Assembly: GCA_951406725.2 (NCBI GenBank)
Contig: OX597815.1
Coordinates: forward strand, 105,772,001 to 105,836,000
Reading direction: 5' to 3'
Length of the DNA: 64,000 nt
DNA from: Octopus vulgaris
Taxonomy: Eukaryota
The notes under the pieces are model-generated. The model made no database searches. It saw only the letters and a list, made by a program, of their open reading frames with translations, and was not told the origin of the DNA. The translations under genes and the position numbers were made by a program. Of the stretch, positions 20,523 through 62,360 are shown piece by piece (position 1 is the first letter of the stretch; every line of letters starts with the position of its first letter).

Positions 20523-21165
20523 AATGTAATATGTGACAATTATTCGGTAGCCAAGATAAAACACTGAGTTTCAGATGCCAACGTGGAAATTTTTTCATAG
20601 CATTTTTCCAATGGCCGGATAACTGAAGAGATGGCAGCATGAATTTCCACCTCGGCATCCGAAACTCGGAGTTTTATCTTGGCTACCAAATAATTGTCAC
20701 ATATTACATTAACCCACACCCCACCCGTGCTTTCCCCACTCTCAACTCCCTCACCTCCCAACAACATCACAACACACCACCCACACACCCATCCCCACAT
20801 TTTCACACCTACACATACATACACGCACATGTCCAGACCACCAGCCCTCTTTCACACGCACATACATACTCTTTTATACACACACACACCTTCGTGTTGG
20901 GGGTCATCTTCACTTTGTTATCTCCCCTACTTTCCTTCTTGTGTGTGACCCTTCTGTCTGGCACTAGTCGCCATGATTGATCGTTAGCCACTACACACAT
21001 TTTTTTCTCTCTTTATTTCTCTCCTTGTTTTTTCTGTGTCCCTTTCTGTAGAAAAGCGTAGGCTCGAAACATAAAACACTTTTTCTATTCCTGAGCATTA
21101 TACTAATACATCTGTTTGTTTTGTACACCACCTGTCTTCGTCTTTTGTTTTTTTCATAAACTCTC

Positions 21166-21168
<3 letters not shown>
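20523..21168 (+). mobile_element. Penelope-pLTR-like non-coding element with 5' inverted duplication and two hammerhead-like motifs
   Basis: Inverted arms at 20523-20591 and 20642-20710. The 3' part is repeated at 26736-26918(-), ~30030-30170 and ~56270-56510, and this copy ends at (TA)n. Confidence 0.6.
20618..20678 (+). ncRNA. Minimal type I hammerhead ribozyme motif
   Basis: Stem I GATAA/TTATC, core CTGAAGA, stem II GATG..CATC with one extra C, then GAAA, stem III CTC-G-GAG and a GUU cleavage triplet (predicted cut after 20673). Confidence 0.7.
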
Positions 21169-21215
<47 letters not shown>

Positions 21216-21219
<4 letters not shown>

Positions 21220-21558
21220 GGTAAAGACCCCCTTCGGTCATGAATGACCATGGGATTGCACCTAGAAAGTTACCCTCCTAGACACAAGTCCAGGCAAGGT
21301 TTTTTATGGAAGACCAGCAGTCGGCCATGCATACCAGCCTCCCCTCTCCACGCCACCAGTGTTATCCAAGGGAAAGACAAAGGTCGATACAGCTTGGCAC
21401 CAGTGACATCGCAACTCATTTCTACAGCTGAGTGAACTGGAGCAACGTGAAATAAAGTGCCTTGCTCAAGAACACAACACACAGCCCGGTCCGGGATTCA
21501 AGTTCACAACCTCACGATCATAAGCTCGACGCTCTAACCACTGAGCCATGCACCTTCA

Positions 21559-21559
<1 letters not shown>
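21216..21559 (-). mobile_element. tRNA-derived CORE-like SINE inserted in (TA)n
   Basis: Minus strand has A box TGGCTCAGTGG and TGTGTTCTTGAGCAAGGCACTTTATTTCACGTTG shared with the 10429 SINE, but a different 3' half. (TA)n lies on both sides. Confidence 0.85.
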
Positions 21560-21609
<50 letters not shown>

Positions 21610-21769
21610 TTAAAATGTTTCAACTTCAAAGCTGCGGTCATGTTGGGGCACCTCCATTGACTGGGCTACACCACTATTTGAAACCTCCTCCGATATGTAG
21701 TATTTGGTCAATGAGTCAGTTTGATGCCGCTGCCCTCATCTGTGTTTCCTGCTGTGAGGTAGGCTCGTC

Positions 21770-22579
21770 TTGAACCCTTGACAGGTGGAGATCCAGTTTT
21801 GTTTTAAAGACACATCCACACCATGCAGGTCTCTCAGGCATTTTGGAAAGATATTGAAGAGCTATGGGCCCTTGAAACCTAAGTTGTTGCAGTATTTGGT
21901 CCTGTAGTTTGATGGTGATGCTGGGATCTTTGCACTATGCAGCGGTGCCCCATTCTGCTGTTTGAGTAACTTTCAGTGCCAAAGTTTAGTACAAGGCCCT
22001 CCAAATTTTTCCAGATGTATATCACTGCATATCTTTCCTGCCTTCATTCTAAAAAGAAGAGTTTTAATTTTTTCATTTTCTTCCTGATATGTTGCATTGA
22101 CACAATTTTCTTAGTGTAGCTTTATTGGATTGCTTCAAGTTCTGCCATAGATTTTATATTGTGTGGTGACCATAGTTGGAAGCAGTAGTCCAAGCAGCTG
22201 AGGATGTATCTCCTCCAAAGGATCATCAGTGTCTCCTTTTCTCTTAATTTGAAAGTCCAGAGGATCCATTAATAGCTGTCTGCATTTTATTACCAAATTG
22301 GTAATATGCACTTGAAAAGATGCATTATTGTTCATCTCAATGTCCATGTCATGCATTGATTTTGATTCAGGAATTGCACTTCTTCCCAGGCCAGTGTATC
22401 CTGTCTGCATGTTGTTTAGCTTTGTGTGCTGATAGCGCAGAGCCTGGAATTTTCCTGCATTAAACTGCATGTTGTTGTCCTCAGCCCACCAGTATATTGC
22501 ATCCAACTCCTGTTGAAGATACGCAATATTTCCAGGATTTTGTATTGTCTGAGAGTCTTTTGTGTCATCTGCATAGCTA
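21770..22579 (-). mobile_element. CR1-like LINE 3' fragment
   Basis: SYADDTK followed by ..DAIYWWAEDNNMQFNAGKFQ, and frameshifted LDYCFQLWSP and ER..RYAVIYIWKILEGLV segments. Confidence 0.8.
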
Positions 22580-22580
22580 G

Positions 22581-22897
22581 CAAGGGTGGTATCAAAGTGG
22601 TATCAAAGTGGTATCAAAGTGGTATCAAAAAGTCCCCAGACTAGTTCTGTAGTGTGCCAACAGATGGCAGCACATGGTTGCATGTGTAGTGAGAGCTGGC
22701 AGTTTGCCAAGTGATATTACTGTGTTTACTTCACAAATTATGAAGTTTGTGTTTTTGTGATCATATGTATGCTGTAGTTTGTGATTTGTCATGGACAGGA
22801 AGTTGGAACAAAGAGCCAACATGAAATTTTGCATTAAACTTGGAGAGCCTGCTACAGAGACATTGAGCATACTTTGGCAAGCTTACAGCGACAAGGA
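22581..22897 (+). mobile_element. Mariner 5' fragment with 4x GTGGTATCAAA amplification in the TIR region
   Basis: MDRKLEQRANMKFCIKLGEPATETLSILWQAYSDK is a mariner N-terminal HTH. The 11-bp tandem repeat spans 22586-22629. Confidence 0.8.
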
Positions 22898-23238
22898 GTC
22901 ATACACAATGTACGTGTGTGTTGTGTGTGTGTGTGTGTGTGTGTGCATGCGTGTGTATTTGGAATGGTTTCAGGCACATGCTTGGCTATGGGTTCTGTGG
23001 TTAATAAACATATGGTCTTTCGTTCAGTCCAACAGCATGGATGCCTTTTGTTAAGCTGATAAAGAAAGACTGGTATCCCAGTTTGTGTCATTCCTTGTAC
23101 TGTGCATTTTACCTGTTGTCTATGTTTCAATTTTCTTTTATTTGACCATAAATACTACACTGATATTTTGCCCACATTAATATATTTTTTTATCTTACCT
23201 ATCAGCAGCTGCCTTCTTCACTCCTTTTATGTTTCTTT

Positions 23239-23270
<32 letters not shown>

Positions 23271-23916
23271 CCACAAGGCTCTCTAATATCCAATAGTCTT
23301 ATATTTTTCTCTTATATGGACAATCATTCTTGGTTTAATCTTTTTACCCCAATTGAAAGAGTTTTATTGTTTAATATTCTTTTGTCTCTTCATCTTGTGT
23401 TCTGTTGACCTTAGCCATATAAGCTAATACTTTTTTTGCCCTTTTTTGTTAGGCCAACAGTTTTAAATATTTGTTATATTTAATTTTTCATAAATCTTCA
23501 TATATATGTTGTTGTCCCGTCTTGTCCTTTGCTTTTGTAGTGTCCTCTCTCCAACATACTATTTGCTGGTAGTATTTATTATAAATTTGCTAGCACTGTG
23601 AAGTAAGCAGTCCTGCTGATGATGTGCCAAAATTGCTTATCCATGTTTCTATCTTTTCTTGTTCTATGCATTTTACTTGTCTGTGCTTTGCTTTTCAACT
23701 TTAAATTTGTATGTATGTATGTGTGCTTGAAAGGTGTTATCTTCACTTCCTCACGTAAGATTGTCTGAGCAGAAATTGCTGTTGTAGACTTTACATTCTT
23801 GGTGAGCACCATTTCCTAGATATCTGATCATAAAATAGTGCCTCAAATGCATAACCATCCAACTCATGCTAACATAGGAAAAGAGATACAAAGTAAAACG
23901 TATACACATATATATA

Positions 23917-24315
23917 GGCACAGGCATGGCTGTGTAGTCGGAAGTTTTCTTCCTATACACATGGTTGTGGTTTCAGTCCCACTGCACAGTACTTTGGGTG
24001 AGTTTCATCTGTTATAGCCCCAGGCCAACCAAAGCCTTGTGAGTGCATTTGGTAGAAGGAAACTAAAAGATATCTATTGTATATATATATGTATGTGTTT
24101 GTGTCTCTTTGTCTTGGCATTATGTGATAGTTTTAAAATGATTGTCACTGTTACACAAGCAGCACATTTCATTTCCAATATTCTGCAAGAACATCTCTGG
24201 CCATGAAGAAATATTACCTTGCATGGAAATAGGTAGGGGTTGGCATCAGGAAGAGTATCCAGCTGTAGAAGATCTGCTTCAAATAAAGTGAGCTTTAAAT
24301 GAAGATGTTGATGAT
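23917..24315 (+). mobile_element. tRNA-derived SINE (family C) with RTE-like tail
   Basis: Head GGCACAGGCATGGCTGTGTAG..GTTTCAGTCCCACTG and tail GGTTGGCATCAGGAAGAGTATCCAGCTGTAGAA, the latter shared with the RTE 3' UTR. Related minus-strand copies at ~29430-29601 and ~49040-49397. Confidence 0.7.
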
Positions 24316-24319
24316 ATAT

Positions 24320-25275
24320 CATCATCATCATCATCGTTTAACATCCGTTTTCCATGCTAGCATGGGTTGGGCAGTTCAACCGGGGTCTGGGAAGCCAGGC
24401 GGCTGCACCAGGCTCCAGTCTGATCTGGCAGTGTTTCTACAGTTGGATGTCCTTCCTAATGCCAACCACTCCATGAGTGTAGTGGGTGCTTTTTACATGC
24501 CACCAGCACAGGGGCCAGAGGAGGCTACAACAGCCATGATCAGTTGGTGCCTTTTACATGCCACGGGCATGGAACCCAGTCAAGACAGTGCCGGCATCAG
24601 TCATGTTCGAATGGTGCTTTTTACGTGCCACTGGCACGGGCATCACAACTACAATTTCCATTTGATTTTGATTTTGATGTTGATGTATTTGACTCAATAG
24701 GTCTCCTCAAGCACAGCAAGTTGCCCTACAATCCAAGGTAAGCACAGCAGGTCATCCTATGATCCAAGGTACTTTTGAATGGGCTGGGGCTGGTTATGCA
24801 AAACTGGTGTAGGATACAGCTGTGAACTCACTTTATTTGTCGGGTCTTCACAGTCACAGTATATCTCCAGAGGTCTTGGTCTTTCATCATTGCCTATGAG
24901 AGGCCCAACATTCAAAGGTAATGCTTGACCACCTCATCCCATGTCTTCCTGAGTCTGCCTCTACTCTGGATTCCTTCAACTATTTGAGAGTGGCACTTCT
25001 TTACACATCTCTCCTCATCCATCCGTAGTACATGACCATACCAGTGCAAACATCTCTCTTGCACACCACATCCGATGCTTCTTATGTCCAACATTTCACT
25101 CAGGGCGCTTACACTCTGTCGTGTGCACACTGACATTACACATCCAGTGGATCATACTAGCTTCATTTGTTTCAAGCCTACGCATGTCCTCTGCAGTCAC
25201 AGCCCATGTTTCACTGCCATGAAGCATGGCAGTTCGCACACATGCATCGTACAATCTACTGATTGCACACATGCA
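24320..25275 (-). mobile_element. RTE LINE 3' fragment with complete 3' UTR and (GAT)n tail
   Basis: ERCLHWYGHVLRMDEERCVKKC..GRLRKTWDEVVKH, followed by UTR repeat units and the terminal CATGCTAGCATGGAAAACGGATGTTAAACGATGATG. Confidence 0.9.
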
Positions 25276-25282
25276 TCATACA

Positions 25283-25315
<33 letters not shown>

Positions 25316-25344
25316 TGCTGAAGATATATGTATGCTGAAATGGA

Positions 25345-26012
25345 CTGGCCTGCAAGAGCCCTGTGCCAGTGGCACATAACAAGCACCTGTGCTGGCCCCA
25401 TGTAATAGTGCTTGAGAAAACCTAGTAAGCCAAGTGAGACCATAACCCATGGCCTATGCCAGTGGTGTAACCAGCCCACTTAGGCATACCTTTCTTTCAT
25501 TGGACACTAAACTCTGCTTGTAAAGACCTGTTGAGGCAAGTGAAATCGAAATCAATTTCGATGACAGCACCGCATGACTAGCATCCGTGCCAGTGGAGCA
25601 CTAAGAGCACCATCCGAGCATGATTGTTGCCAGGGCCGCCGACTCGACCCTGTGCCGGTGGCATGTAAAAAGCACCATTTGAGCGTGATCATTACCAGCG
25701 TCGCCTTACTAGCACTTGTGCCAGTGGTACGTGAAAAACAACATTCAAGCGAGGGCGTTGCCAATGCCGTTGGACTCTCTCCTGTGCAGGTGAGAGATGA
25801 AAACACCATCTGAGCGTGGCCGTTGCCACTACCACCTGACTGGCCCTCTACACCCATTACACTCTCGAAGTGGTTGGCGTTAGGAAAGGCATCCAGCTGT
25901 AGAAACTCAGCCAGATCAGATTGGAGCCTGGTGCAGCCATCAGGCTCACCAGTCTCCAGTCAAGCTGTCCAACTCATGCCAGCATGGAAAGCAGACGTTA
26001 AACGATGAGGAT
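25345..26012 (+). mobile_element. RTE 3' UTR copy with tandem GTGCCGGTGGCAC units
   Basis: Colinear with 60340-60790 and continues to the terminal hairpin and GAT tail. Confidence 0.85.
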
Positions 26013-26021
26013 AATGAGGAT

Positions 26022-27144: not shown

Positions 27145-27182
<38 letters not shown>

Positions 27183-27189
<7 letters not shown>

Positions 27190-27857
27190 ATAAATGTCAG
27201 GAAGTGTGAGAGGTGAATATGTATTTATTTAACCACATGACTTCCTTAGGATTATGGCCATTTTGCAACCTTCTTTATGTATTATTAATTTCAGTGTGGA
27301 ATGCTTACAAATTTGCGTTAATATGCATGCACAGCACTAACAATTGTTTATTCATAATGTACAATTGTGTGAGGTCTTCTGACCGTTTAACCCTAATCTG
27401 AAGCTTACTGTTGTTCAATATTACTTCTTCATTTGATCTTTAAACTTCCAGTTGTCTGTTCCCAACTTAGCCATCCATTTAATTACTTTGACTAACAATT
27501 CATTTGCATTGTTTTTTTTTATATATTCTTATTTACTTTTTTAAGCTACTTATTTTATTTTTATATTTACTTTATCTACTTTAACTTCCTCTTCTTATCC
27601 CTTCTTCTTTTTAGCTGACATGAGGGATAGTCAATTCCTTTAATTTCTATCTCAAATTGTTATTTTTACTAACCAAACCAAGCTAATTTTATCTAGTTTC
27701 AGCCTTCCTTACATAATGCAAATATGTTAGCATAATTTCTTCCTCCCTAAATCAATACTACATGAAGAAGGTTGTGAAATGGCCATAATCCTAAGAATGT
27801 CACATGGTTAAATGAAAGTATATTCACCTTGCATAACTTCTGACTTTTATAGTTTAT
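27183..27857. repeat. ~100-bp imperfect inverted repeat (27183-27283 / 27754-27857) with AT-rich spacer
   Basis: The arms are reverse complements with scattered mismatches, e.g. GGATTATGGCCATTT / AAATGGCCATAATCC. Confidence 0.85.
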
Positions 27858-31969: not shown

Positions 31970-32017
31970 TAGATATATATATATATATATATGATATATA
32001 CACACACACATGAATAT

Positions 32018-32288
32018 TGTTGCTGCTTTGTGTAAAAATCTAGGTAAGTGGGATCACAATCACCACTGTGACAATAAAGATGAACAATGGTTTAAACTTT
32101 GGAGCCATTTGTTTTCTATTCATACGTTATGATGTGTACGTGTACCACGTGTACATATTAGTGTACATACCCATCATAATGTGTAAGTAGAAAATAAATA
32201 GCTATGAAGTTTAAACCATTGTTCATCTTCATTGACACAGTGGTGATTGTAACCCTGCTTGCCTAGATTTCTACACGAAGCAGCAACA
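32018..32288. repeat. Long imperfect palindrome (~125-bp arms)
   Basis: TGTTGCTGCTT..ACAATCACCACTGTG..GATGAACAATGGTTTAAACTT is mirrored across a short spacer. Confidence 0.9.
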
Positions 32289-32588
32289 GTAAGAAAAACT
32301 TTGTTGGCGCATCATTACAGAAGCAGCAAAAGATCGGTTACACTGTTACAAAGTCATGTTCACAGTAATATGAAATAACCATAAAATATTCAGGGATGAC
32401 AGCAGTTTTCCGGGATATAGATGCACACAACACACAACCAGCTAGTCAGAAGACAAAACAACATGGATCCCAGAAACAAACTGGAAGTGACCCACTTCCC
32501 ACAAGTCGTAAAACTAAGACTAAATAATAATATAACAATAACTTATTGGTGGAGATAACATACATGTGTATATATGTATATATATATA

Positions 32589-32721
32589 CTTTATTTAAAG
32601 CAGCAGAAAATTCAACAAAACCTGTTACTCTGAGTTTCCCGTTGCCGTTCATCGGACAGTAACGGCAACGGGAAACTCAGAGTAACAGGTTTTGTTGAAT
32701 TTTCTGCTGCTTTAAATAAAG
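32589..32721. repeat. Perfect 61-bp inverted repeat with 11-nt spacer
   Basis: 32589-32649 is the exact reverse complement of 32661-32721. Confidence 0.97.
32622..32659 (-). ncRNA. Minimal type I hammerhead ribozyme motif (U4C core variant)
   Basis: Minus strand reads CTGT-CCGATGA-ACG GCAA CGG-GAAA-CTC A GAG-TA|ACAG: stem I CTGT/ACAG, GNRA-capped stem II, palindromic stem III and a GUA triplet. Confidence 0.7.
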
Positions 32722-32792
32722 CATATTACTCTACCACAGGTATTTGGGTACTCTTTTTTCCACCTTGTTTCACATTTATGTGTTTACTCCGG

Positions 32793-32824
<32 letters not shown>

Positions 32825-32860: not shown

Positions 32861-33979
32861 TAATAATATAAATAATATATAAATATATGCATATATACAT
32901 ACATATATGTACATACCTACATATACATGCACATATGAGTACAGGACATCAAAAAAACGTTGAACACAATGAGAAGCAAAAACATAAAAACAAAAACATA
33001 GAAACAAACTTTTTTTGGAACAACAAAAAAACAAACAGAGAAACGAGACATACAACATAAAGAATATTCCCCTTCTTCAGTTGTTTCCTGTTTCATCTAC
33101 TCCACGATTCGAAGGCAAGGACAAGACGCGACTTCATTGAAACAGTCCTTCCTGCAAAGCAAATTAAATAAAATTTGGGATTTTTTGCGGAGGGTGAAAG
33201 TGGTAACAAGAACAGGACAGTGAGAACAAAACAGTAAAACAATAAAAGAATAAAAACAGTAAAAGACAGAACAATGAGAACAAAATAGTAAAAACAAATG
33301 ATGAGGGTTGTTAAGCCAAGACGATGGAAAAATTATTCTGAACGCTTAGGGAGATGAGCTTATGAAGAGACAGAATAAGCACGTTTAGTCTTTGCGAAGA
33401 TAGTAGTCAGAAAGATAGATTCCCTCTTGTCCTGTGTCAGCAACGAGAGAGTCGAGGAGGAGAAGTGAGAGAGAGGGAACAGTGAAGGGGAGAGGAGAAG
33501 CATAGGGTGGGAGAGAAAACCAGAAAGGATGAAGAACAAGAGGGGGAGAGAGATAGACAGAGAAGAGATAGTAAAGATAGAAGAGTGCGCATCGTAATTA
33601 TTAACGTAAAACTTAATAATATAAATAATATATAAATATATGCATATATACATACATATATGTACATACCTACATATATATGTATATATACATGGATACA
33701 GGACATGAGAAATAACGTTGAACACAATGAGAAACGAAAACATAGAAACAAACTTTTTTGTGGACAACGAAAAAACAAACAGAGAAACGAAACAGGCAAC
33801 ATAAAGAATATTCACCTTCTTCAGTTGTCCCTGTTTCATCTACTCCACGTTTCGTAGACAAGGACAATACGCGACGTCGTTGAAACAGTCCTTCCCACAA
33901 AGCAAATTAAATAAAATTTGGGATTTTTTGCGGAGGGTGAAAGTGGTAACAAGAACAGGACAGTGAGAACAAAGCAGTA

Positions 33980-33980
<1 letters not shown>
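32861..33980. repeat. ~370-bp direct repeat pair (32861-33237 and 33614-33980)
   Basis: Colinear copies, e.g. GCAAATTAAATAAAATTTGGGATTTTTTGCGGAGGGTGAAAGTGGTAACAAGAACAGGACAGTGAGAAC in both. Confidence 0.9.
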
Positions 33981-34159: not shown

Positions 34160-34562
34160 AATGACTGGCACCCGTACCAGTGGAGTGCTAAGAGCAGCAT
34201 CCTACTGTGATCATTGCCAGAGCAGCTGACTGGCTTCCATGCCGGTAGCATGTAAAAATGCCGGTGGCGCATGAAAATACATTCGAGCAAGATCGTTGCC
34301 AGTGCCACTGGACTGGTTCCTCTGCAGGTGGCATGTAAAAAACACCATTTGAGTATGGCCGTTGCCAGTACCGCCTGACTGGCCCTTGTGCTGGTGGCAC
34401 GTAAAAGCACCCACTACACTCTCGGGGTAGTTGGCGTTAGGAAGGGCATCCAGCAGTAGAAACTCTGCCACATCAGATTGGAGCATGGTGCAGCCATCTG
34501 GTTTGCCAGTCCTCAGTCAAATCGTCCAACCCATGGAAAGCGGATGTTAAATGATGATGATG
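34160..34562 (+). mobile_element. RTE 3'-tail-derived repeat
   Basis: Tandem units, GGCGTTAGGAAGGGCATCCAG and a (GAT)n tail. Further copies at ~28600-28850(-), 30230-30435, 34813-35090(-), 36545-36745, 39300-39610, 48215-48830(-), 58165-58325, 61200-61505 and 62433-62620(-). Confidence 0.85.
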
Positions 34563-34599
34563 AATTTGCAAGGAAACACTGACCTCCTTCAAAAATAGG

Positions 34600-36400
34600 A
34601 CATGGACTCGATCGTTACAATGGGAAGTTCAAATTCTGTCCAGGTCACAGATATTGTTGGACTATGTCTAATCTCTAAAATTAGGGAAGAATACCCTAAT
34701 GTTAGTGGAGGCCTATATAGAGATGATGCCTTATTCGCCGTATCTGAATCCTCTACACAAACAACTGATAGGATTTAGGAAAAAATAAGATTTTTAAAAT
34801 TATACAAAATTATCATCATCATCATCATTTAACGTCCATTTTCCATGCTGGCATGGGTTGGATGATTTGACTGAAGACTGGTGAACCAGATGGCTGCACC
34901 AGGCTCCAATTTGATATGGCAGAGTTTCTACAGCTGGATGCCCTTCCTAACGCCAACCACTCCGGGAGTGTAGTGGGTGCTTTTACATGCCACCGGCACG
35001 AGGGCCAGTCAGGCAGTACGGGCAATGGCCACACTCAAATGGTGTTTTTTACATGCCACCTGCACAGGAGCCAGTCCAGCGGAACTGGCAAAATTAGATA
35101 TCATATTTGAAAATGTCTCTGAATGTTAACACATTCAGAGACATTTGGATAATGGCTTATTCTACTCCTATCATAAGGCTAACAAAACTATTAAGTATAT
35201 CCACACTTTATCAGATCATCCCCAAAGTGTCATTAAGGAATAATTAAAGGCGTGTCAATATGAATATCTAATTTATCTGCAAATGAAAAAAATATTTAAT
35301 GAGTTTGCACCCCTTTATAATACATCACTAAAAGACAGCAGTTTTAACAGTAAAATATACAATATTAAAAACATGATATTTAAAAACAAATTAGGCAAAC
35401 AGTTTCCAGAGTCAAGACTGTTGAAAAGGTTGCAAGATGCAACGAAAATTTTAGGAAAATAAAAATAAGAAATAAGTGAAAATTTTACTGTTGAGTGTGT
35501 TAAATTATGAGGTACTAAAAGAAAATTGACTTTCACCGGACACAACATTTTCCAAATATGAATTTTAACATTGACTCACATCCTATAAATAACATCCACC
35601 AAATATAGAAATCAACAACACTTTAGAAGACGCTATAGATTTTTCAAGTATAGCAAAAATGATATGCGGCAGAATAGGAACTATTCTGGGAGGAAACAGG
35701 AAATTGTATGGTTTACACCCCCTTTCTCCCTCCATGTAAGAAATTTCCCTAAGTTATTTTTTAGCATTATCAATAGGAACTTCTCGCCTGGTCATAAATA
35801 CCAGTCTATATTTAATAGATCTTGTCTTAAATTATCCTATTCTACCTCACCCAATCTTGGATCTATCATCGCAGCAAATAATAGACTTAAACTTAGAAAT
35901 AATGAAACCATTAGAGATAATTTAGCTGATCTTAACACGAAGAACAATGATAAGGACTTGAATATTAAAAATAGTAAGATTAAACAAAATAAAAACATGT
36001 AATTGTCATAATAGGGAATTTTGTTCTCTTAAAGGCTTCTGTTTAAGGAGAAACACCGTATATAAAGTCGAAGTCTCAACCCTAAATGAACCTAAAAAGA
36101 TTTACATAGGTAGTACTATTGACTTTAAAAGTAGATATAGGGCACATATAAACTCATTCACTAACCACGAAACAAAAAACTCAACTACACTAGTCACCTA
36201 CATCAATAGATTAAAAATGAACAACAAAGAATTTAGTATAAATTGGTCTATAATAAGGGAAGCCACACCATATAATACACACACAAAGAATTGCGATTTA
36301 TGCACAAAGGAGGCGCTCCACATAATCTGAGCCAACAGAAATAGTTTAGTCAATAAAATATCTGACGTTATAATTACCAGTAGACACAAATATATTTCAA
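34600..36400 (+). mobile_element. Degenerate Penelope-like element (Naiad-type RT plus GIY-YIG endonuclease), interrupted by an RTE-tail repeat at 34813-35090
   Basis: MGSSNSVQVTDIVGL, GGLYRDDAL, PYHKANKTIKYIHTLSDHP, IVWFTPPFS, IFNRSCLKLSYS, CNCHNREFCSLKGFC, VYKVEV..IYIGST..FKSRYRAHINSF and NCDLCTKEA. Confidence 0.9.
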
Positions 36401-37369
36401 TGTTTAAATTTTTTTTTAAATAATTAAACTATAGGATTCTAATTTTGCCTTACCACTGTCCCGCTATACCTCTAATTTTTCATCAACTGGCACAAAGCCA
36501 CCACTACCCTCATTACTACTTCCTCCTCTCAGCTGAGAGGGTTTTCGTATTGCATGTTACTCAGTGACCCTGTTGGTGTTGGTGCTACATAAGAAACACC
36601 CACTACATGCTGAATAGCAGTTGATATTAAGAAGGGCATCCAGCCATAGAAACCATGCCAAAACAGACATTAGAGCCTGGTGCAGCTCCTGTCAAACCAT
36701 CCAACCCATGCCGGCATGGAAAATGGACATTAATTGATGATGATAATATATATACAACAAGCTTTGGTCAAATTGAGATAAAAGTAGGAGACACTTGCCA
36801 TGGTACCATGCAGTGGTTCAGAAACAAACTTTTTAAACACCATCCATATTCACTCTAACACAGCTTATAGAACAAGCAAAAGAATAAAAGCTTCCTCTCT
36901 GTTACACAACAGCTGCAAAAAGGTGTTCAACAGCACAAAGATGAACACAGTGCTGAAACTCCTGGAAATGCAAGGAGTAACATGAGGCGATTTGAGAACA
37001 AAGCGGCGTGAACAACATGATCACAGAATACAAGTTCTGCTGAGCTGATGATGTCACAAGGTTCACAGACTACATGCGGACCTATGCAGTTCCTAAGTGA
37101 TATCCACTCAGAAGGCCACCATAATGATTGGAAGACAATTGACTAAAACAATTTGGGTCAAGATGTAAAAGAATGGTGCAGTCAAGAAAGAATTGAAAGC
37201 CCATTGTGATCACATCGTGGCTGTGTGTTTAAGAAGTTAAGTTTGCTTCCCAACCAAATGGTTTTGGGTTCAATTCTACTGTATGGCATCTTAAGTGTCT
37301 TTTGCATCCCCAGGTTATAATAATTTTATATCTACCTTCCCTGATGGTATGTATATATATATATACACA

Positions 37370-43423: not shown

Positions 43424-43518
43424 ATGCATGTGCAAGACTTGGACAAAACCCTTCAAATGGAGCGTACTGCTTCAAAAGAAGCTCAGAAGACTTTTGAAGA
43501 AATGAATAAAAAACTTAG
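43424..43518 (+). CDS. CCDC171: CCDC171-like exon: MHVQDLDKTLQMERTASKEAQKTFEEMNKKL(R)
   Basis: TTTAG acceptor and GTATGT donor, phase 0 in and phase 2 out. Parallels recalled CCDC171 [20 protein letters not shown]. Confidence 0.85.
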
Positions 43519-49521: not shown

Positions 49522-50223
49522 GAATAATTAATGAAATAAGAAATAAGGAAAGCTTCTAACAATGCAGAAAGTTATAAAAAAACTTCATATTTTGGGTGCA
49601 AAGGCCTATCTTCAGAAGAATACAGTCAAAGACATGTATATTTACACAGATCCTGCCATTTTGGATAGACCAGTACTTGTGCTAGTAGCAGCATTTCCCC
49701 AAATGCTGCTGTAGTTGGTGTTGTACCTGTCACAATGGGGACAGCTGTGCTGGAGACAAGGAAGACTGGTTGAGGTTGGCAACGGTAGTGGTGGTGGTGG
49801 TGGCGGTGTCTACATCCCCATAGTTGGTGGTAGTGGTAAGTGTTGTGGTAGTAGTTGGCGGTGTATGTTCTTGTAGTATCTGCTGGCATGGTGGTTGATG
49901 GCAGTTTACAACAAACATTCCTCAATATGGCATGAAATAGCAGTGGTGGAGGGTACTGGTAGGTATCAGTGCTAGTCACTATTGTGGTAGTAAGGATGTT
50001 GGTCATGGTTGCAGTAACAAAGGGAGTGTTTGACAGTATATTCACAGAAGCCACTGACCCAATTTCAATCAACCATTGACTTTTGGGGTTAAGTTGGTGG
50101 ATCAATAAAGATAGGTCTTGCAGTGGATTAGTAAAGATAGACCTTTTGCACCTGAAATATAAAGGTTTTTAAACTTTGTGCATTGTTGGAAGCTTTCTTT
50201 CTTTCCCATTTCATTCATTATTC
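49522..50223. repeat. ~95-bp imperfect inverted repeat (49522-49615 / 50131-50223)
   Basis: The reverse complement of the left arm, CTGAAGATAGGCCTTTGCACC..TGCATTGTTAGAAGCTTTCC, matches the right arm. Confidence 0.8.
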
Positions 50224-51300: not shown

Positions 51301-51999
51301 TAACTATATTTTTATACATAATTAGTGCAGTTAAAAAAATCTCTTCTTTTTCCATACACTCAAGATGTTAGAATTTTCAGGCATGAAAATTTAATTTTAA
51401 TCTTTTTTTAACATACTTTTTTTAACCATGCTTATATGGGTTGAATGGAGTTCAGGTTTTTTTACAGCCAGATGCCCTTCCTGTTGCCATTTTCTCATCT
51501 GCTTCCAAGTATGATAACGTTTTCCCATGGCCAGACATGTTTACATGAAAGATTGGAAACGAACAGCACTGCTTGTTTGGTGACACTCATTTACAACTTT
51601 CACACAATGTCACGACAAGGAGACACAAACACACATGCTCTCATATCAGCATTTCTTACTCCTATTTCAGTTGGAATAGTTTTCTATAGTTTTCTACCTC
51701 CAACAAAGCATCAGGAGTTCTTAAAGAAGAGGAAAAAACGCCTTTGTTCCCTTTGTAAAATTCAGACAGAATATTATCACTGTTTTGCTGTTTTTACTAC
51801 TAGGTAGATCAGTATGGTTGTTGGGGTTCCTTTCTATTTCTGTCATTTTAGGGCATCATAGAATAATGTTAGCCAAGTGTTTGCTTAAATTATTTTTGTT
51901 ACAAATGGAGGTTAACATAGTGGAGTAGTACTCAGTCCCTTGTTATATACTATACTCTCCTGTCTAGAATGTCTAGAATTGGAATACCAGTTGAAGACT

Positions 52000-53150
52000 T
52001 TAAGTGGGAAACTTTCACAATTTAAAAATGTAAGAGTAGTCTTTTCACCTTGTCTCCTATATCTAAGGCATGCTGAATAGTGCAAAATTTCTTCTTAGTA
52101 ATTGATAGCACACTTTCAAGCTGTTCTTTATGCTTTTGACTTAACAGTTCTAAGTTGATTGGCTGTAGTTTCCATTGAATTTTCATCAAACTTCAGTTAG
52201 GCACTTCTTTCTTTTTCCTATAACAGTGTTATAATTGTAGATGCATTTTCTTCAACCAAGTTTACTTCAGATGCTTTATTTGTCCAAAATATTTTGATAG
52301 CAGTATCACACATTGCTTCTTTTAGGCAATTCTAAGTTTTATCGAGGAAAATGAAACAAACCGAGAAGCAACTAAACATAGAGTTCAACTGCTCCACAAT
52401 TAGTTTGCTTAAGGTTGCATTGTACTGTAGCATCTTGCCCTTCTGAATTTTTTTTTTTTTTATTAAATCTCTCTTTTGGCTGTAGCAATAAAAAGGATGA
52501 GATTTGTATCAGAATCAGTGTTCTTATGTGATCTTGGTCAATGTAGACATCTAGGTCTAGTTTTTTTACCATTGTAGAATGCGTTTGTTACATTGAAAGA
52601 GTCATGAGAGCAGAGCACTGTCTATTTTTGTTGATTGCACCAACTCCAAACTGTCCCAAGAAAGACCAATTTGAATAATCAGATCTCTCTCAAGCATTGA
52701 AGTCACCCAGAAGAGTTGAGGAGTGATGACATATGCACTAAATAATGTTTGCAAAGTCTTACTAGTTGTTTAACTTTAAAGACAGGATGTTCCTATTCTC
52801 TCTCACAGGTGTATTGATATTGCTAAAGAATTTATTGCTGTCTCCATGCACAGCATAGTCTTCAGATCTACAGCCTTTTCAGTAAAATATATAATGATTC
52901 ACTTTCAAATACTCAGAGTTAGCCAATCTTGCCTTCTCATTCAAACATTCTATTGCAAGTCAGTATTGACAAGTCCAGTACACATTCTCACATTTCAGAT
53001 CTTCAACTTCAGTGATGTTGTTTTGCTTTGTTTCAACTTATGTCTGCTTGTTGGCTTTAAATCCATCTTCATATACCCCATCAGGCAAACAGATGTGATG
53101 GATTAGCACTTTACTGATCAGTGCAACTGAAAAGAATTGACCTATAACAT
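52000..53150 (-). mobile_element. Degenerate RTE-type apurinic endonuclease region
   Basis: LLGDFNA*..LGQFGVGAINKN and LDLDVYIDQDH-like segments; boundaries are uncertain. Confidence 0.55.
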
Positions 53151-54829
53151 CATCTCTCATCATCAATTTGCAAAGACTTATAATTTGTAACTGCCACATT
53201 ACCTATGTATGGATGGAATATCCACTCTCTTGACTGAATGCTACTATGGCTATAATTCTTTTATTTGAAGAATGTAATATGAAAAATGTGCCTTGTCTAG
53301 TTGTGTAACTTCTCTTAGCCATGCTAATTAGTTTCAATGGAAGGAGAAGAATTGATAAATTTGAAAACCAAGCAAAGTTGCAAGGGATACAAAAAGTATA
53401 GTCTAGTAGCAGATCTATCCACAACTCCCCACAGGTCCCTTCATTTTGGATTTATTCAAGGTTTTTCTCTTTAGTTGTTTGCACTATCATACTAGTCTGC
53501 AAAGTGTAGCAGAGGTTACGTTTTTCTTTGGCACTTTTGATTCACTAAATAGCCCTGTCTATGGAACTTTGATATATTTTATAGGAAAGTAGGAACTACC
53601 TATCCATCCTATCTCTTGCTACCAGTTGGTTCACAAGTTATTTTATTTGATAAGTTAACTCTAGGGGCCATCCTAATATCCACCATCTGCAGACAAACTG
53701 AGTTAGGGTTAATCACCTACCATCATCATTGTTTTATGTCTAATTTCTATGCTGGTTGGTTGGATGGGTTGACACAGTCCAAGTTAGTTCTTATTCAGAG
53801 TTAATGTCCTCCTAGAAGAGTGGAAGCCCACATCTTCCTCACATGTTCTTTTTTCAACATGATTTCTATAGGTGGATCTTTTTCTTGACACAGTGTGTAC
53901 TAAGTGCACTTTACCATGGAACCATCACCAGAAAAGTTGTCATGTCCTTGACAGATCAATACTAAAGTATATTCTTGACCTTACAGTATGTTCCTCATTT
54001 GTCAACCACGTTACAGAATGTATTAGGCACATATTGCAGCAGCAGCACTTGCGAAGTTGCCTCATACTCCTTAAGACAAAATTATTCTATGTTGTCTCCA
54101 CTCATTCAGGATAATAAATATGATCAGCATAGAGAGTCGAAGGTGAATGCAGCAGTTGAACTGGAGTGAGTGAGGAAAAGAAACAAGTGAATGATGGTGA
54201 AGAACAGGGTGATTAGAACAAGTGTAGATGGAGAGGGAGACTAGAAAGGAGTTTCACTAGGATAATAGAAGAAAGACAATAATGATAAAGTGTAATGAGA
54301 AAGAGACTCTCTGGTTGCTACATGTTTGCTGGCAAAAGAGAAAGAGATGAATATCAATAACAAGTCACCTGGAAGAAAGGGATTATATTCAATGCTGAGA
54401 GAGAGAGAGCAAGATGGCAATGGTAAGAGAGTGAGGGATGTCAATAAGTGTGACTAGTGTAAGACTGAGTGGAAGTTAGCAAAACACAAGGGTAGATGGA
54501 AGAGTGTATTAGATGCTAACAGATCTGATTCAATCTTTTGTTACTCAGGCATCATAATGCAAGGAGGAGAAATGTAGAGAGATTTGGATGGTGGGTAGAG
54601 TTGTGATAGATCTAATATTATCCCTCATTAAAAAGGTAGCAGAGTACAGAACATAGGAGAGGGATTAACAGAGAAATAATAGGGTATTCTATAAGCAAAA
54701 TGGACAGCACGTCAAGACTTGGGAAAACAAAATGGGAAACTGGCTCATATGCATGTGTTTGAATGTTACATCACAGCCGCATTCACTATCCCCATTTTAA
54801 CACATGTTTTGCTATGTTTGCATGGTTAA

Positions 54830-55830: not shown

Positions 55831-55842
55831 TCTCACTTCTAA

Positions 55843-56258
55843 GTCAGTAGCTGGGGTGGATGCTCTGAGAGCATAGCTGCTGGAATAAGAATAGCCTGGG
55901 CAAAGTTCAGAGAGTTCCTACCTCTGCTGGATGAGGACAGCTATGTGAAAAAGTGTCACACTCTAACATTGGAAAGAAGCTGTGGAAGAGGACCTGGGAT
56001 GAGGTGGTGAAGCACAACCTTCAAAGGTTGGGCCTCACAGAGGCAATGACAAGCGACCAAGACCTTTGGAGTTATGTTGTGCTTGAGAAGACCCAGCAAG
56101 CCAAGTGAAACTATAACCATGGCCTATGCCAGTGTCACATAACCGGCCCATTTAAAAGTACCCTTCAATTATTGAGCATTAAACTATGCTTGAGAAGACC
56201 TGTTGAGTCAAGTGAAATCATTGTCATGGCCAGTGCCAGTACTGCCTGACTGGCACCA
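55843..56258 (+). mobile_element. Internally deleted RTE 3' fragment
   Basis: Matches 59824-59912 joined directly to ~60168 onward, then continues into the 3' UTR. Confidence 0.8.
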
Positions 56259-58559: not shown

Positions 58560-60790
58560 GAGAGAAATGTGTTCACATGGATCATGGTTCACTTGCGCTA
58601 AATGAGGATGCAAAGAGAGAGGTTTGGAGACGCCACTATGAAAGGTTGCTGAATAAAGAAAATGAATGGGATAAAGAGAGTCTGCCGAATGTCGACCCAA
58701 CAGAGGGACCAGCTATCCGAGTTGACAGTTCCTTGGTAGTTAAGGCAATTAGAAGCATGAAGACAGGGAAAGCCCGAGGCCCATCAGGAATTACTGCAGA
58801 GATGCTCAAAATATCTGGTAGTGTCGGCTATAGCCTAGTCACCCGTATAGTTAATCAGGTGATACACGAAGGAATCATACCCAATTACTGGTGTAGCAGC
58901 ATAATAGTCAACTGCTACAAAGGTAAAGGTGACGCCCTAGATACAAATAATTACAGAGGTATCAAGCTGTTGGATCAGGTAATGAAGGTTATGGAGAGGG
59001 TCATAGCCCAACTAATTAGAGAGAGAGTTAGTTTAGATGAAATGCAGTTTGGGTTCGTGCCAGGGAAAAGTACCATTGATGCTATATTCCTGGTAAGGCA
59101 GCTGCAGGAGAAATATCTAGCCAAAGATAAGCCCCTGTACCTGGCTTTCGTTGACATGGAGAAAGCCTTTGACAGGGTCTCCCGATCCCTTATCTGGTGG
59201 TCAATGAGGAAACTAGGGATAGATGAATGGTTAGTGAGAGCTGTGCGAGCCATGTACAGGGACGCCGCTAGTAAGGTGAGGGTTGGCAACAAGTACAGTG
59301 AAAAATTCCTGGTAGAGGTAGGTGTCCACCAAGGCTCAGTCCTCAGCCCCCTCCTATTTATCATAGTCCTCCAGGCAATAACGGAGGAATTCAAGACAGG
59401 ATGCCCCTGGGAGCTCCTCTATGTTGATGACCTTGCTCTAATTGCTGAGTCACTATCAGAACTGGAGGAGAAGTTTCAGGTGTGGAAGCAAGGATTAGAA
59501 TCGAAGGGCTTTAGAGTCAATCTAGCTAAAACCAAAGTCCTAATAAGTAGGAAGGTAGACAAATCACAAACGCCTCCAAGTAGATGGCCCTGCTCGATCT
59601 GTAGAAAAGGCATAGGTAGAAACTCTATAAGATGTACCCAGTGTAAGCTATGGACACATAAGAGGTGCAGCAATGTCAAAGGAAGGCTAACTAGGAAGAT
59701 AGTTTTTGTATGTTGCAGATGCTCAGGAGCAATAAACACTGAAAATGCTCTGAGACCAACTTCTGCCACATTCCAGGGAGAAAAACTAGTAGTAGTTGAT
59801 AGCTTCCGTTACCTAGGTGACCAAGTCAGTAGCGAGGGTGGGTGTGCTGAAAGTGTAAGTGCTAGAGTAAGAATAGCTTGGGCAAAGTTCAGAGAGCTCT
59901 TACCTCTGCTGGTGACAAAAGGCCTCTCGCTCAGAGTAAAAGGCAGACTGTATGACGCATGTGTATGAACAGCCATGCTACATGGCAGTGAAACATGAGC
60001 CGTGACTGCTGAGGATATGTGTAAGCTCGCAAGAAATGAAGCCGGTATGCTCCGATGGATGTGTAATGTCAGTGTTCATACTCGACAGAGTGTAAGTACC
60101 TTGAGAGAAAAGTTGGACCTAAGAAGCATCAGTTGTGGTGTGCAAGAGAGACGTTTGCGCTGGTATGGATGAAGATAGTTGTGTGAAAAAGTGCCACACC
60201 CTAGCGGTTGAGGGAACCTGTGGAAGAGGCAGACCCAGGAAAACCTGGGACAAGGTGGTGAAGCACGACCTTCAAACTTTAGGTCTCACCAAGGAAATGA
60301 CTAGAGACCGAGACCTTTGGAAGTATGCTGTGCGTGAGAAGACCCAGCAGGACAAGTGAGACCATAACCCGTGGCCTCTACATGGGATGTAGCCAGTCCA
60401 CTTATGCATACCTTTCCTTCTTAGGACACAAAACTCTACTTGTGAAGACCTGTTGAGGCAAGTGAAAATCCAAAATCAAAATTGAAATCGATCAACATCA
60501 ATGGAAATTGCAGCTGTGATACCAGTGCCGGTGGTACGTAAGAGAACCATCCAAATGTGGCCATTGCCAGCGCCGCCCCGACTGGCCTTGTGCCGGTGGC
60601 ACGTAAAAGGCACCATCTGATCGTGGCCATTGCCAGCCTTGCCGGCCCCCATGCCGGTGGCACGTAAAAAAGCACCATCCGATTGTGGCCGTTTGCCAAC
60701 CTCGGCTGGCACATAAAAATCACCCACTACACTCACGGAGTGGTGGGCGTTAGGAAGGGTATCCAGCTGTAGAAACATTGCCAGATCAGT
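58560..60790 (+). mobile_element. Young 5'-truncated RTE-clade LINE (RT with PHD-like finger); open ORF 58577-59968
   Basis: YKGKGDALDTNNYRGIKLL, QFGFVPGKST, FVDMEKAFDRV, GVHQGSVLSPLLF and LLYVDD. Premature TGA at 59966 and 59996, a small deletion near 60167, natural stop at 60359, and a UTR lacking the terminal tail. Confidence 0.95.
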
Positions 60791-60834
60791 AAATCGAGCC
60801 ACAACAATATGCCATATATATACATACACACACA

Positions 60835-60929
<95 letters not shown>

Positions 60930-60939
60930 GTAGATAGAC

Positions 60940-60990
<51 letters not shown>

Positions 60991-61058
60991 TTTCAATATG
61001 GAGCAAATAATTCAGGAGAAAATATTTGCGAAGGTATCATTTACTCTATTATTATCTA

Positions 61059-61102
<44 letters not shown>

Positions 61103-61557
61103 TGTAAATTCGATTAGAGGTTATGTTAACTTCATGAAGGGATGGTTTCATCCAAGGAAATACTGGTTCAGTACCTTGTATTTTGGGGTAATTAAATTCC
61201 TTCCGAACGTGGCCGATGCCAGCACCGCCTTGACTGGCTTTTGTGCCAGTGGCATGTGAAAAGCACCATCTGATCATGGTTGATGCCAGCCCCTTCTGGC
61301 TCTTGTGTCAGTGGCACATTAAGAAGCATCCGCTACACTCTTGGAGTGGTTGGTGTTAGGAAGGGCATCCAGCTGTAGAAACACTGCCTGATCAGACTGG
61401 AGCCTGGTGCAGCCTCCTGGCTTCCCAGACCTCAGTCAAACCGTCGAACCCATGCCAGCATGGAAAGCAGACATTAAACGATGATGATGATGAGGAGGAT
61501 GATGAATATGTATATATATAAAAACATAGTTTATTTTCATATAAAAGAAGAACAAGG

Positions 61558-62360
61558 AAATGGAGATTGAGAAGTTAATAATTGTTTATTATTAACAGCA
61601 AATTAATCATCAACTCTTACAGCTATTTCAGTCAGAATTGATTGACCAACATGGATCTATGTTAACTTCTTCTTAGGGGTGATGGGTAAAAAATGTAAAT
61701 GCATATATATATACTGTAAATTTGATTAGAGGTTGTGTTAACCTCATGAAGGTAGATGTATGTGTGGGTGTGCATATGTATTAATGTGTTTGTGCATGTA
61801 CATGTATGTGTATATATGCATATATACATATATGCACGGATGTGTGTGTACATATGGATGTATGTATATGTGTGGGTATATGTGTGTGTCTCTGTGTAGA
61901 TATATATGGACATTCAGATGTATCCATGTATGTGTGTATATGTATGTATGCGTACTTGCATATATACAAATTTTCTTAACTTTATTTATACATTATAAAC
62001 GAATATTCCATTCTTACCTTATTTATATTTAAATTTCCTCCATCCTCTCTATTTAATTTATTCATTTATTACTCTAATTCTATTTACCTACTCTATCTTA
62101 TCTCCAATCAACATGCAAACCCCTTGCCCAAACATATAAAAATAGAAATCATAAACAGTATCATGCAGTCTGCTATAACGAATCCATAAATACATATAAA
62201 ACATCCAAGTGTATATTTTTTCCTCTGAAGATATTATACTCAGGTCATATAAATTTAATATTTAATTAATATTTACTCACTAGTAATTGAAACAGCTGTA
62301 AAGGATAATGATTAATTTGCTGTTAATAATAAACAATTATTAACTTCTTAATCTCCATTT
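61558..62360. repeat. 73-bp inverted repeat (61558-61630 / 62288-62360)
   Basis: GAAGTTAATAATTGTTTATTATTAACAGCAAATTAATCAT and its exact reverse complement are both present. Confidence 0.9.
62221..62305 (+). ncRNA. Penelope-type hammerhead ribozyme motif
   Basis: TCCT-CTGAAGA-TATTATACT..AGTAATT-GAAAC AGCT GTA|AAGGA: palindromic stem III, GUA triplet and a slightly imperfect stem I. Confidence 0.7.

What the first reader, a model, noticed from the sequence alone, without database searches (positions are those of the whole stretch)
20523..62360. Recurring architecture: unrelated inverted-repeat units with outward-reading minimal hammerhead ribozymes
Seen: five inverted-repeat pairs with unrelated sequences (20523/20710, 27183/27857, 32589/32721, 49522/50223, 61558/62360) share one layout. 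The inner end of an arm carries or overlaps a CTGAAGA/CCGATGA...GAAA motif that reads outward. Three fold into recognisable type I hammerheads with a tiny palindromic stem III (CTC-G-GAG, CTC-A-GAG, C-AGCT-G); two are decayed. None has visible coding sequence. Established: Penelope-like elements carry such minimal, dimer-acting hammerheads in pLTRs and often integrate with an inverted 5' pLTR copy, and metazoan retrozymes are non-coding hammerhead elements thought to use PLE enzymes. Inference: this is a diverse set of ribozyme-bearing pLTR-only or non-autonomous retroelements, and a Naiad-type RT/GIY-YIG relic lies in the same window. Because they sit in host introns they could also form long dsRNA hairpins.
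Basis: partly seen in the sequence, partly recalled or inferred. Interest (0 to 1): 0.8.

Follow-up and report, generated by a model that had tools for sequence, protein, structure and literature searches.

The report
Penelope retroelement tail-end hairpin scars
The five hairpin-shaped repeats are real and three carry hammerhead-ribozyme motifs of the style published for Hydra-clade Penelope-like jumping genes, so they are most likely the ordinary cut-short, back-to-back tail ends that such elements leave when they insert next to TA repeats, not a new system.

Summary
The five inverted repeats are at the stated places, are single-copy in the window and share nothing beyond the ribozyme motif. 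Three (U1 20.6 kb, U3 32.6 kb, U5 62.3 kb) hold a type I hammerhead core with a palindromic stem III (3 hits; 0.175 in shuffles). U2 keeps only the stem III half; U4 is doubtful. The motifs match published Hydra-clade Penelope-like element (PLE) hammerheads in stem III, triplet and distance to the 3' end. Six of 10 unit ends lie within 77 nt of (TA)n, and three units carry a one-sided extension. Public runs show U3 is a very high-copy family with two 3' ends about 66 nt apart and many different inversion points, so it is not a fixed hairpin unit. The RT relic is RT then C-terminal GIY-YIG with a CxCX5C linker: Hydra clade, not Naiad. Opposite-strand hammerhead pairs 100-700 bp apart were published in 2014 as truncated PLEs. 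In a read-through RNA the arms are predicted to bury the core. Open: no unit was tied to an ORF, so a non-autonomous master for U3 is not excluded. Known architecture, uncatalogued families, low interest.

The parts
20459..20519 (-). U1 one-sided extension (likely PLE tail), 61 nt, between the left arm and a (TA)n(GATA)n run at 20431-20458
   Evidence: sequence; tail role inferred
20520..20591 (-). U1 left arm: shorter inverted copy, begins inside hammerhead loop II, no CUGANGA
20612..20713 (+). U1 right copy with complete type I hammerhead motif (core 20623-20629, GAAA 20661, stem III ACTC-G-GAGT, GUU site at 20673, 40 nt from arm end)
27183..27320 (-). U2 left arm, abuts (TA)19 at 27147-27185; decayed stem III half at 27264-27253
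27714..27857 (+). U2 right arm; GAA-ATGG-CCAT-A palindrome at 27776-27787, 70 nt from arm end; no recognisable core
32589..32660 (-). U3 left copy with complete motif (core CCGATGA 32655-32649, U4C; stem III ACTC-A-GAGT; GUA site at 32626, 37 nt from the end), abuts (TA)n
32661..32721 (+). U3 right arm, 61/61 identical to the left arm, lacks the core
32722..32792 (+). U3 tail: part of the high-copy family, present in some copies and absent in others, ends at (TA)n
   Evidence: tables 2 and 7
49522..49625 (-). U4 left arm with CTGAAGAT at 49615-49608; decayed, doubtful hammerhead; no (TA)n within 8 kb
50134..50223 (+). U4 right arm, GAAA at about 50154
61521..61553 (-). U5 one-sided extension (likely tail), 33 nt, next to (TA)n
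   Evidence: tail role inferred
61554..61641 (-). U5 left arm, stem III half at 61629-61618, no intact core
62215..62370 (+). U5 right copy with core 62225-62231, long AT-rich loop II, stem III ACAG-CTGT, GUA site at 62300 (64 nt from arm end), followed by (TA)n
34600..36420 (+). Broken, 5'-truncated Hydra-clade PLE ORF: RT (YRDD near 34715), SINE insertion at about 34813-35091, WFTPPFS region, CxCX5C linker, C-terminal GIY-YIG; no hammerhead found at its 3' end
   Evidence: for the missing hammerhead

Best explanation
The five units are inverted repeats with hammerhead motifs 37-70 nt from their outer ends, and are most likely dead, cut-short insertions of several Penelope-like (probably Hydra-clade) retroelement families, each likely made as two short copies of the element's 3' end joined head to head. 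Inferred mechanism: the GIY-YIG endonuclease cuts both strands in or beside a (TA)n run; reverse transcription starts from both ends at two internal sites on the element RNA, one further 3' than the other, which gives the one-sided tail; both cDNAs stop early, often in or near the hammerhead; repair joins their 5' ends. Because a Hydra-type hammerhead sits 36-97 nt from the 3' end, it is carried into every such stub and must read outward. The ribozyme is cargo: only one complete core lies on any one strand, the 0-1 nt loop III calls for a dimer, and in a read-through intron RNA the two arms are predicted to pair with each other and bury the core. Shown here: the repeats, motifs, (TA)n adjacency, U3's high copy number, two 3' ends and varied junctions, and the relic's domain order. 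Inferred: the priming steps (from work on a lizard Poseidon element), the clade of each unit, inactivity.
For: Motif style: Craig et al. File S2 lists Hydra stems III as gaa actc g gagt, gaa actc a gagt and gaa acag..ctgt with GUA/GUU sites; Hydra-2_aMil has the same ctgt/acag stem I as U3; Penelope-13_HM carries hammerheads on both strands through an inverted 5'-truncated copy. Cleavage site to 3' end is 36, 46, 47 and 97 nt in four consensuses I counted and 40, 70, 37 and 64 nt in U1, U2, U3, U5. (TA)n: 3 of 10 unit ends within 8 nt and 6 of 10 within 77 nt, against 0.8% (10 nt) and 4.4-6.1% (70-100 nt) per random position; 1 of 8 ends of four SINE or DNA-transposon pairs lies within 100 nt. 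Almost all Hydra families insert into (TA)n. U3 family: summed contig depth up to 2.17 million over the arm against 50.7 for the locus's own flank contig in X1, with like ratios in X6 and X9; loose ends run straight into (TA)n at 32726 in 36, 41, 15 and 7 contigs of the four runs while other copies carry the tail to about 32790; the 15 joints shown (of 33) all have different pivots. Published precedent. Arm-arm pairing leaves G12-A14 unpaired with probability under 0.02 in U1, U3 and U5. A Hydra-clade ORF relic lies in the window and shares a 20-nt word with Hydra-1_Obim alone in that supplement.
Against: No unit was linked to an RT-EN ORF: an HMM of 152 homologues and tblastn found nothing credible in the spacers, and the window's own relic has no hammerhead and no DNA similarity to any unit. 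U4 has no (TA)n within 8 kb and no intact stem III; U2 lacks a core; U1's complete arm does not end in (TA)n. Published tails are 30-40 bp; those of U1 and U3 are 61 and 66-71 nt. The stem III words of U2, U3 and U5 (with a few flanking bases) are not in Craig's supplement, so clade assignment rests on motif style; Neptune or Poseidon origin is not excluded. Only U3 was tested against public runs, 1 of 5 units. No target-site duplication could be read.
Confidence: 0.78

Rival explanations
1. At least U3 comes from a non-autonomous mini-element: an RNA of about 150-220 nt that starts a few bases before hammerhead stem I, has no ORF and is copied in trans by a Hydra RT-EN, giving dispersed single and inverted copies rather than tandem arrays. 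The insertion chemistry is the same as in the best explanation; the template differs.
For: In all four runs the loose-end consensus past 32660 agrees for 9-11 letters and then differs between runs (agreement 0.55-0.64), and the joint inserts shown extend at most about 11 nt past that point (tables 5c, 7). The shared letters only lengthen stem I to about 10 bp. Copy number is very high, while Craig et al. list a single octopus Hydra family. A 2026 preprint argues that animal retrozymes are non-autonomous PLE derivatives.
Against: The short extension is what de Bruijn contigs must show: a contig at a private junction reaches only about 30 nt into shared sequence, so only junctions within about 10 nt of 32660 can be laid. 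A T-rich Hydra UTR with variable runs would blur the consensus too. U2 and U5 hold 250-400 nt of pyrimidine- or AT-rich sequence upstream of the motif, as a longer UTR would. No tandem arrays.
Confidence: 0.15
2. Some units (U4 above all, perhaps U2) are old non-autonomous DNA transposons or local fold-back duplications whose hammerhead-like words are chance.
For: U4 has no (TA)n neighbour and no palindromic stem III. The loose hammerhead criterion is at chance level. A sixth inverted repeat without a hammerhead lies at 32015-32291, and Tc1/mariner relics with terminal inverted repeats occur in the window.
Against: For U3, varied pivots and two alternative 3' ends exclude a fixed cut-and-paste unit. 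U1, U3 and U5 pass the strict palindrome test well above shuffles. U2 keeps a perfect 8-nt palindrome behind GAA at a Hydra-like distance and abuts (TA)19.
Confidence: 0.05
3. The units are kept as working intronic ribozymes or dsRNA switches that cut or mark the host pre-mRNA.
For: U1 and U5 have their complete motif on the strand of the candidate host exons; arm-arm duplexes of 62-130 predicted pairs would be dsRNA.
Against: Arms have drifted up to 19% apart and cores or stems are damaged in 4 of 5 units; the core is predicted buried; minimal PLE hammerheads were inactive as monomers and weak as dimers, and no RNA ends were seen at the site in the lizard element.
Confidence: 0.02

Closest known systems
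Hydra-clade Penelope-like elements and their 3' hammerheads (Craig et al. 2021, PMC8557442; section 11, passages, supplement parts 1, 2, 52, 53 read), e.g. Hydra-2_aMil, Penelope-3_HM, Penelope-13_HM, Hydra-1_Obim
   Same: Type I hammerhead with 4-bp palindromic stem III and 0-2 nt loop, GUA/GUU site, 36-97 nt from the 3' end; (TA)n targets; inverted 5'-truncated copy; one-sided tail; RT then C-terminal GIY-YIG with CxCX5C in the relic.
   Different: By eye none of the five hammerheads is that of Hydra-1_Obim, and three stem III words are absent from the supplement; two tails are 61-71 nt rather than 30-40; U3 carries a U4C core; no ORF is attached to the units.
Dual minimal hammerheads on opposite strands in metazoan genomes (Cervera and De la Pena 2014, PMC4209133; parts 1-2 of 4 read: results and discussion)
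   Same: Pairs 100-700 bp apart on opposite strands, read as truncated PLEs; high sequence diversity within one genome; extra nucleotide after A9; dimer-type stem III.
   Different: Reported for Schistosoma and others; here stem III is the 4-bp Hydra form and one arm usually lacks the core.
Poseidon element PAc of Anolis (Frangieh et al. 2024, PMC11167929; parts 1-2 of 4 read)
   Same: Both strands cut and extended, AT-rich targets, two internal start sites that make the tail, hammerhead not needed for insertion in vitro.
   Different: Other clade; its hammerhead overlaps the ORF start; the paper's passages that I read do not explain the inversion itself.
Animal non-LTR retrozymes (Li, Clavereau, Pollet 2026, 10.64898/2026.07.22.740005; part 1 of 5 and passages read)
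   Same: Short, non-coding, type I hammerhead, PLE-derived.
   Different: Defined as head-to-tail tandems with a hammerhead in each unit; the units here are inverted pairs with one complete core.
Naiad PLEs (PMC8557442)
   Same: (TA)n bias and inverted or tandem insertions; present in Octopus.
   Different: N-terminal endonuclease and no canonical hammerhead; the relic here has a C-terminal endonuclease.

Membership tests
Inverted 5'-truncated PLE insertion (the five units) | Two copies in inverted orientation that share the element's 3' end and differ in 5' truncation | tested here: met
   Arms share outer ends; one arm stops short of the core in U1, U3, U5; 15 of 15 shown U3-family joints have different pivots
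Inverted 5'-truncated PLE insertion (the five units) | Type I hammerhead close to the 3' end, reading toward it | tested here: met
   3 of 5 complete, U2 half, U4 doubtful; 37-70 nt from the end
Inverted 5'-truncated PLE insertion (the five units) | One-sided tail (two alternative 3' ends) | tested here: met
   U3 family ends at 32726 or about 32792 in 4 of 4 runs; one-sided extensions of 61 and 33 nt in U1 and U5; not readable in U2, U4; two are longer than the published 30-40 bp
Inverted 5'-truncated PLE insertion (the five units) | The 3' end belongs to an element with an RT and GIY-YIG ORF | not testable with these tools
   No genome held; no ORF relic in the spacers; contig overhangs too short
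Hydra clade (the five units) | Insertion into (TA)n | tested here: met
   4 of 5 units have (TA)4+ within 77 nt, 3 of 5 within 8 nt; U4 does not
Hydra clade (the five units) | RT phylogeny and motifs | not testable with these tools
   Units carry no protein sequence; only hammerhead style compared with File S2
Hydra clade (relic 34600-36420) | RT followed by C-terminal GIY-YIG | tested here: met
   tblastn order against two full-length homologues; translations; PF01541 E 0.0013, below its cut-off
Hydra clade (relic 34600-36420) | CxCX5C linker; CxxC and CxH around the conserved E and N | tested here: met
   CNCHNREFC and CDLC present, CxH reads SRH; CxCX5C in 104 of 152 homologues
Hydra clade (relic 34600-36420) | RWK and DKT motifs | not testable with these tools
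   That part is missing from the relic; RW at 19-37 and DKT/S in 3 of 6 long homologues
Hydra clade (relic 34600-36420) | Canonical hammerhead in the 3' end | tested here: inconclusive
   None found; a SINE follows about 150 nt after the ORF, so the end may be lost
Naiad | N-terminal GIY-YIG linked by CxC to a C-terminal RT | tested here: not met
   Order is RT then EN
Non-LTR retrozyme | Head-to-tail tandem units, each with a type I hammerhead | tested here: not met
   None of 30 tandem-repeat rows has a hammerhead unit as its period; units are single-copy in the window
Non-LTR retrozyme | Circular or cleaved monomer RNA | not testable with these tools
   Only contigs were available
MITE / non-autonomous DNA transposon | Fixed unit with symmetric terminal inverted repeats and a target duplication | tested here: not met
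   U3 family: varied pivots and asymmetric ends; not tested by reads for U1, U2, U4, U5

The most novel reading that the evidence does not exclude
U3 is a non-autonomous, roughly 200-nt Hydra-derived mini-element whose RNA begins just before hammerhead stem I. It has spread to thousands of copies in several related species as dispersed stubs and fold-backs rather than tandem arrays, and sub-families with a damaged ribozyme (U4C core, open base of stem II) spread as well as intact ones. This would be a SINE-like, non-tandem class of PLE parasite that seeds perfect dsRNA hairpins in cephalopod introns and shows in vivo that cleavage is not needed for spread.
Probability: 0.15. Interest if true: 0.45.

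Novelty: new member of a known kind. Interest (0 to 1): 0.17.

Why it matters
As read here it matters little: it adds several uncatalogued, probably Hydra-clade PLE 3' ends to a probable octopus genome and corrects the relic's clade. Its modest value is as material. The U3 family is young and abundant, so a genome-wide map of its pivots and alleles could test two open points of PLE biology: where the copied RNA starts, and whether the hammerhead has to cut for an element to spread. Fold-back stubs would also be a source of intronic dsRNA in an animal group known (recalled) for heavy A-to-I editing; that was not tested.

Tried and rejected
Whole genome: none held, so no family clustering. Rfam: no hammerhead among 68 matches. 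Strict descriptor: 0 hits in window and shuffles. Word-index homologue search with the endonuclease: 0 of 41 candidates; the RT-thumb piece gave 2 of 136; the full phmmer search gave 2922, of which 150 were listed and used. Names for the two full-length homologues could not be looked up. HMM and tblastn for ORF relics in the units: best 7.7 bits at about 32320-32480, outside U3, against 6.6 in 6 control windows, so a lead only; the three tblastn hits at E 0.005-0.03 among 152 queries are off-register and rejected. Scans for other U3 copies with flanks: 1 match in metagenome contigs, a chance 19-mer with no similarity beyond it, 0 in viral contigs. Expression: no RNA holder listed; run X8 is only guessed to be RNA, so it says nothing on transcription. 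No empty-site joint skipping the whole of U3 was among the 15 joints shown of 33, and the (TA)n flanks were skipped by the tool: no conclusion. A fixed 5' end of the U3 family was considered and left open because contig length biases the overhangs. Host gene: Pfam blank and Atlas hits generic coiled-coil with low recognition. The 45883-45793 motif hit lies in a LINE-like frame with 2-pair stems and is rejected. Literature: 6 searches; 'octopus' with 'hammerhead ribozyme' gave 5 papers (4 listed), of which only Craig et al. is relevant; the O. vulgaris repeat paper (PMC13282606, passages) lists 31 recently active Penelope-like families and has no 'ribozyme' in its text. Repbase and Dfam are not available here and the preprint's supplements are closed, so these families may already be catalogued.
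Full report
Setting. The window is AT-rich animal DNA full of microsatellites, SINEs, LINE and Tc1/mariner relics. It is probably octopus: the SINE style is recalled, and a 20-nt word of the RT relic occurs once in the supplement of Craig et al., inside Hydra-1_Obim of Octopus bimaculoides. No genome is held. Candidate + strand exons with coiled-coil peptides lie at 18616-18704, 20077-20108, 43424-43518, 51968-52029 and 54110-54165 (picked by eye from the scan); the gene could not be named, so the intron location of U1-U4 is an inference and that of U5 is open.

Observation. All five inverted repeats exist at the stated places, with arm identities of 81-100%. They are single-copy in the window and unrelated beyond the motif. 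A strict hammerhead descriptor found nothing. A relaxed one, written after reading the finding, gave 4 sites; 3 have a complete palindromic stem III, against 0.175 (max 2) in 40 shuffles, and these are U1 (20623-20673 +), U3 (32655-32626 -) and U5 (62225-62300 +). U2 keeps GAA-ATGG-CCAT-A without a core; U4 has a core on one arm and GAAA on the other. The motifs are damaged: a one-base slip in stem II of U1, a U4C core and a 2-pair stem II in U3, a slipped stem I in U5. They do not fold better than shuffles and Rfam does not see them. U4C is a known natural variant with much lower activity in vitro (PMC3088659, one passage).

What the motifs resemble. File S2 of Craig et al. lists Hydra-clade hammerheads with stems III actc-g-gagt, actc-a-gagt and acag-nn-ctgt and GUA or GUU sites, which are the forms in U1, U3 and U5. 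Hydra-2_aMil also has U3's ctgt/acag stem I. In four consensuses that I counted the site lies 36-97 nt from the 3' end; in U1, U2, U3 and U5 it lies 40, 70, 37 and 64 nt from the outer arm end. Penelope-13_HM carries a hammerhead on each strand because an inverted, 5'-truncated copy is attached. Hydra families insert into (TA)n; here 3 of 10 unit ends are within 8 nt and 6 of 10 within 77 nt of (TA)4+, against 0.8% and 4-6% for random positions, and 1 of 8 ends of other inverted pairs. U4 is the exception. In U1, U3 and U5 the arm without the core carries an extension of 61, 66-71 and 33 nt before the microsatellite.

The family behind U3. I had one read-laying run and spent it on U3 (4 runs, all contigs). 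The locus's own flank contig has depth 50.7 in X1; summed depth over the arm reaches 2.17 million, with like ratios in X6 and X9. The tool warns that this is no copy number; allowing for up to 31-fold overlap of contigs, I infer at least about a thousand copies. Loose ends go straight into (TA)n at 32726 in 36, 41, 15 and 7 contigs, while depth stays high through the tail to about 32790, so the family has two 3' ends. All 15 joints shown (of 33) have different pivots, each at about single-locus depth: the hairpin is made anew at each insertion and does not move as a fixed unit. Palindromes can confuse assemblies, so some joints may be artefacts. The free position N7 varies (32651, 69 contigs in X1), and an allele at 32671 with 36-59% of the depth closes a 3-pair stem II with a GCAA loop; both CCGA and CTGA cores appear in joint inserts. 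Upstream of stem I the family continues for 9-11 letters, which lengthen stem I, and then the consensus blurs. That could mean a fixed 5' end, but contigs at private junctions reach only about 30 nt into shared sequence, so this result is forced by the method and is inconclusive.

The relic. [quoted passage not shown] Two full-length homologues align in that order and an HMM of 152 homologues scores it at 191 bits. CxCX5C with a C-terminal endonuclease is the Hydra signature; Naiads have an N-terminal endonuclease and no canonical hammerhead. The relic shows that the clade was active here; it is not the parent of any unit (no DNA similarity; no hammerhead). No ORF relic was found in the spacers.

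Mechanism. The best reading is abortive target-primed insertion by PLE enzymes. In the lizard element PAc the protein cuts and extends both strands at AT-rich sites, starts at two internal RNA sites whose spacing is the tail, and does not need hammerhead cleavage (PMC11167929, parts 1-2). Two short cDNAs joined at their 5' ends give an inverted repeat with both 3' ends outward, a tail on one side, and the hammerhead inside the arms. That joining step is my inference. The ribozyme is then likely idle: a 0-1 nt loop III needs a partner, only one complete core lies on a strand, and arm-arm pairing leaves G12-A14 unpaired with probability under 0.02. Long duplexes in pre-mRNA are predicted (62-130 pairs), not shown.

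What is known. Cervera and De la Pena reported dual minimal hammerheads 100-700 bp apart on opposite strands, and mostly solitary motifs of great diversity, as truncated PLEs; monomers did not cleave and dimers cleaved weakly (PMC4209133, parts 1-2). Craig et al. draw the inverted truncated copy and one-sided tail as typical, and a curation guide lists both (PMC8969392, passages). Retrozymes are tandem by definition, which these are not. Earlier notes of this scan reach the same reading in other genomes; they are unchecked and are not counted as support.

Verdict. Observation largely right, interpretation overstated. It works like, and has the tested marks of, an inverted truncated PLE insertion; membership of each unit in the Hydra clade rests on motif style and target, since no ORF is attached. 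The families are not in the one catalogue I could search. A non-autonomous master for U3 remains possible (0.15). Interest 0.17.

Noticed in passing
window 32861-33237 and 33614-33980: Two direct copies (88% identical) of a roughly 380-nt repeat among TA-rich runs. On the minus strand a GUC or GUA triplet is followed by a possible 10-bp helix that abuts CTGAAGA (33084, 33828), but no GAAA or stem III follows: half a type III-like hammerhead. Six short words were not in Craig's supplement. Unexplained.
   Followed up: partly
   Followed up: partly
window 32300-32550: Low-copy repeat (5-8 times single-locus depth, about 80-85% alike, one 4.4-kb contig) with a 7.7-bit Hydra HMM hit, barely above controls; may be another PLE fragment into whose (TA)n end U3 inserted.
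   Followed up: partly
window 32654 and 32671: This U3 copy has a U4C core and an open base of stem II; 36-59% of family depth has the base that closes stem II. The share of U4C was not among the rows shown.
   Followed up: partly
window 20457-20470: A 14-letter word of U1's extension appears in the consensus of 15 loose ends beside U3-family contigs in run X6 (agreement 0.47): a weak hint that U1's family is also abundant and shares targets with U3.
   Followed up: no
window 6833-6929: 98-nt fragment 86% identical to the Hydra relic: a second copy of that family.
   Followed up: no
window 34296-35091: Two SINE copies in inverted orientation (88% over 276 columns) enclose the 5' piece of the Hydra relic; a predicted dsRNA longer than any of the five units.
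   Followed up: no
window 58562-59968: 468-aa open RT frame with an embedded PHD/C1-like finger, a LINE-like relic.
   Followed up: no
window 49626-50168: U4 spacer holds a 180-codon T/P/H-rich stop-free frame on the minus strand with no Pfam match.
   Followed up: partly
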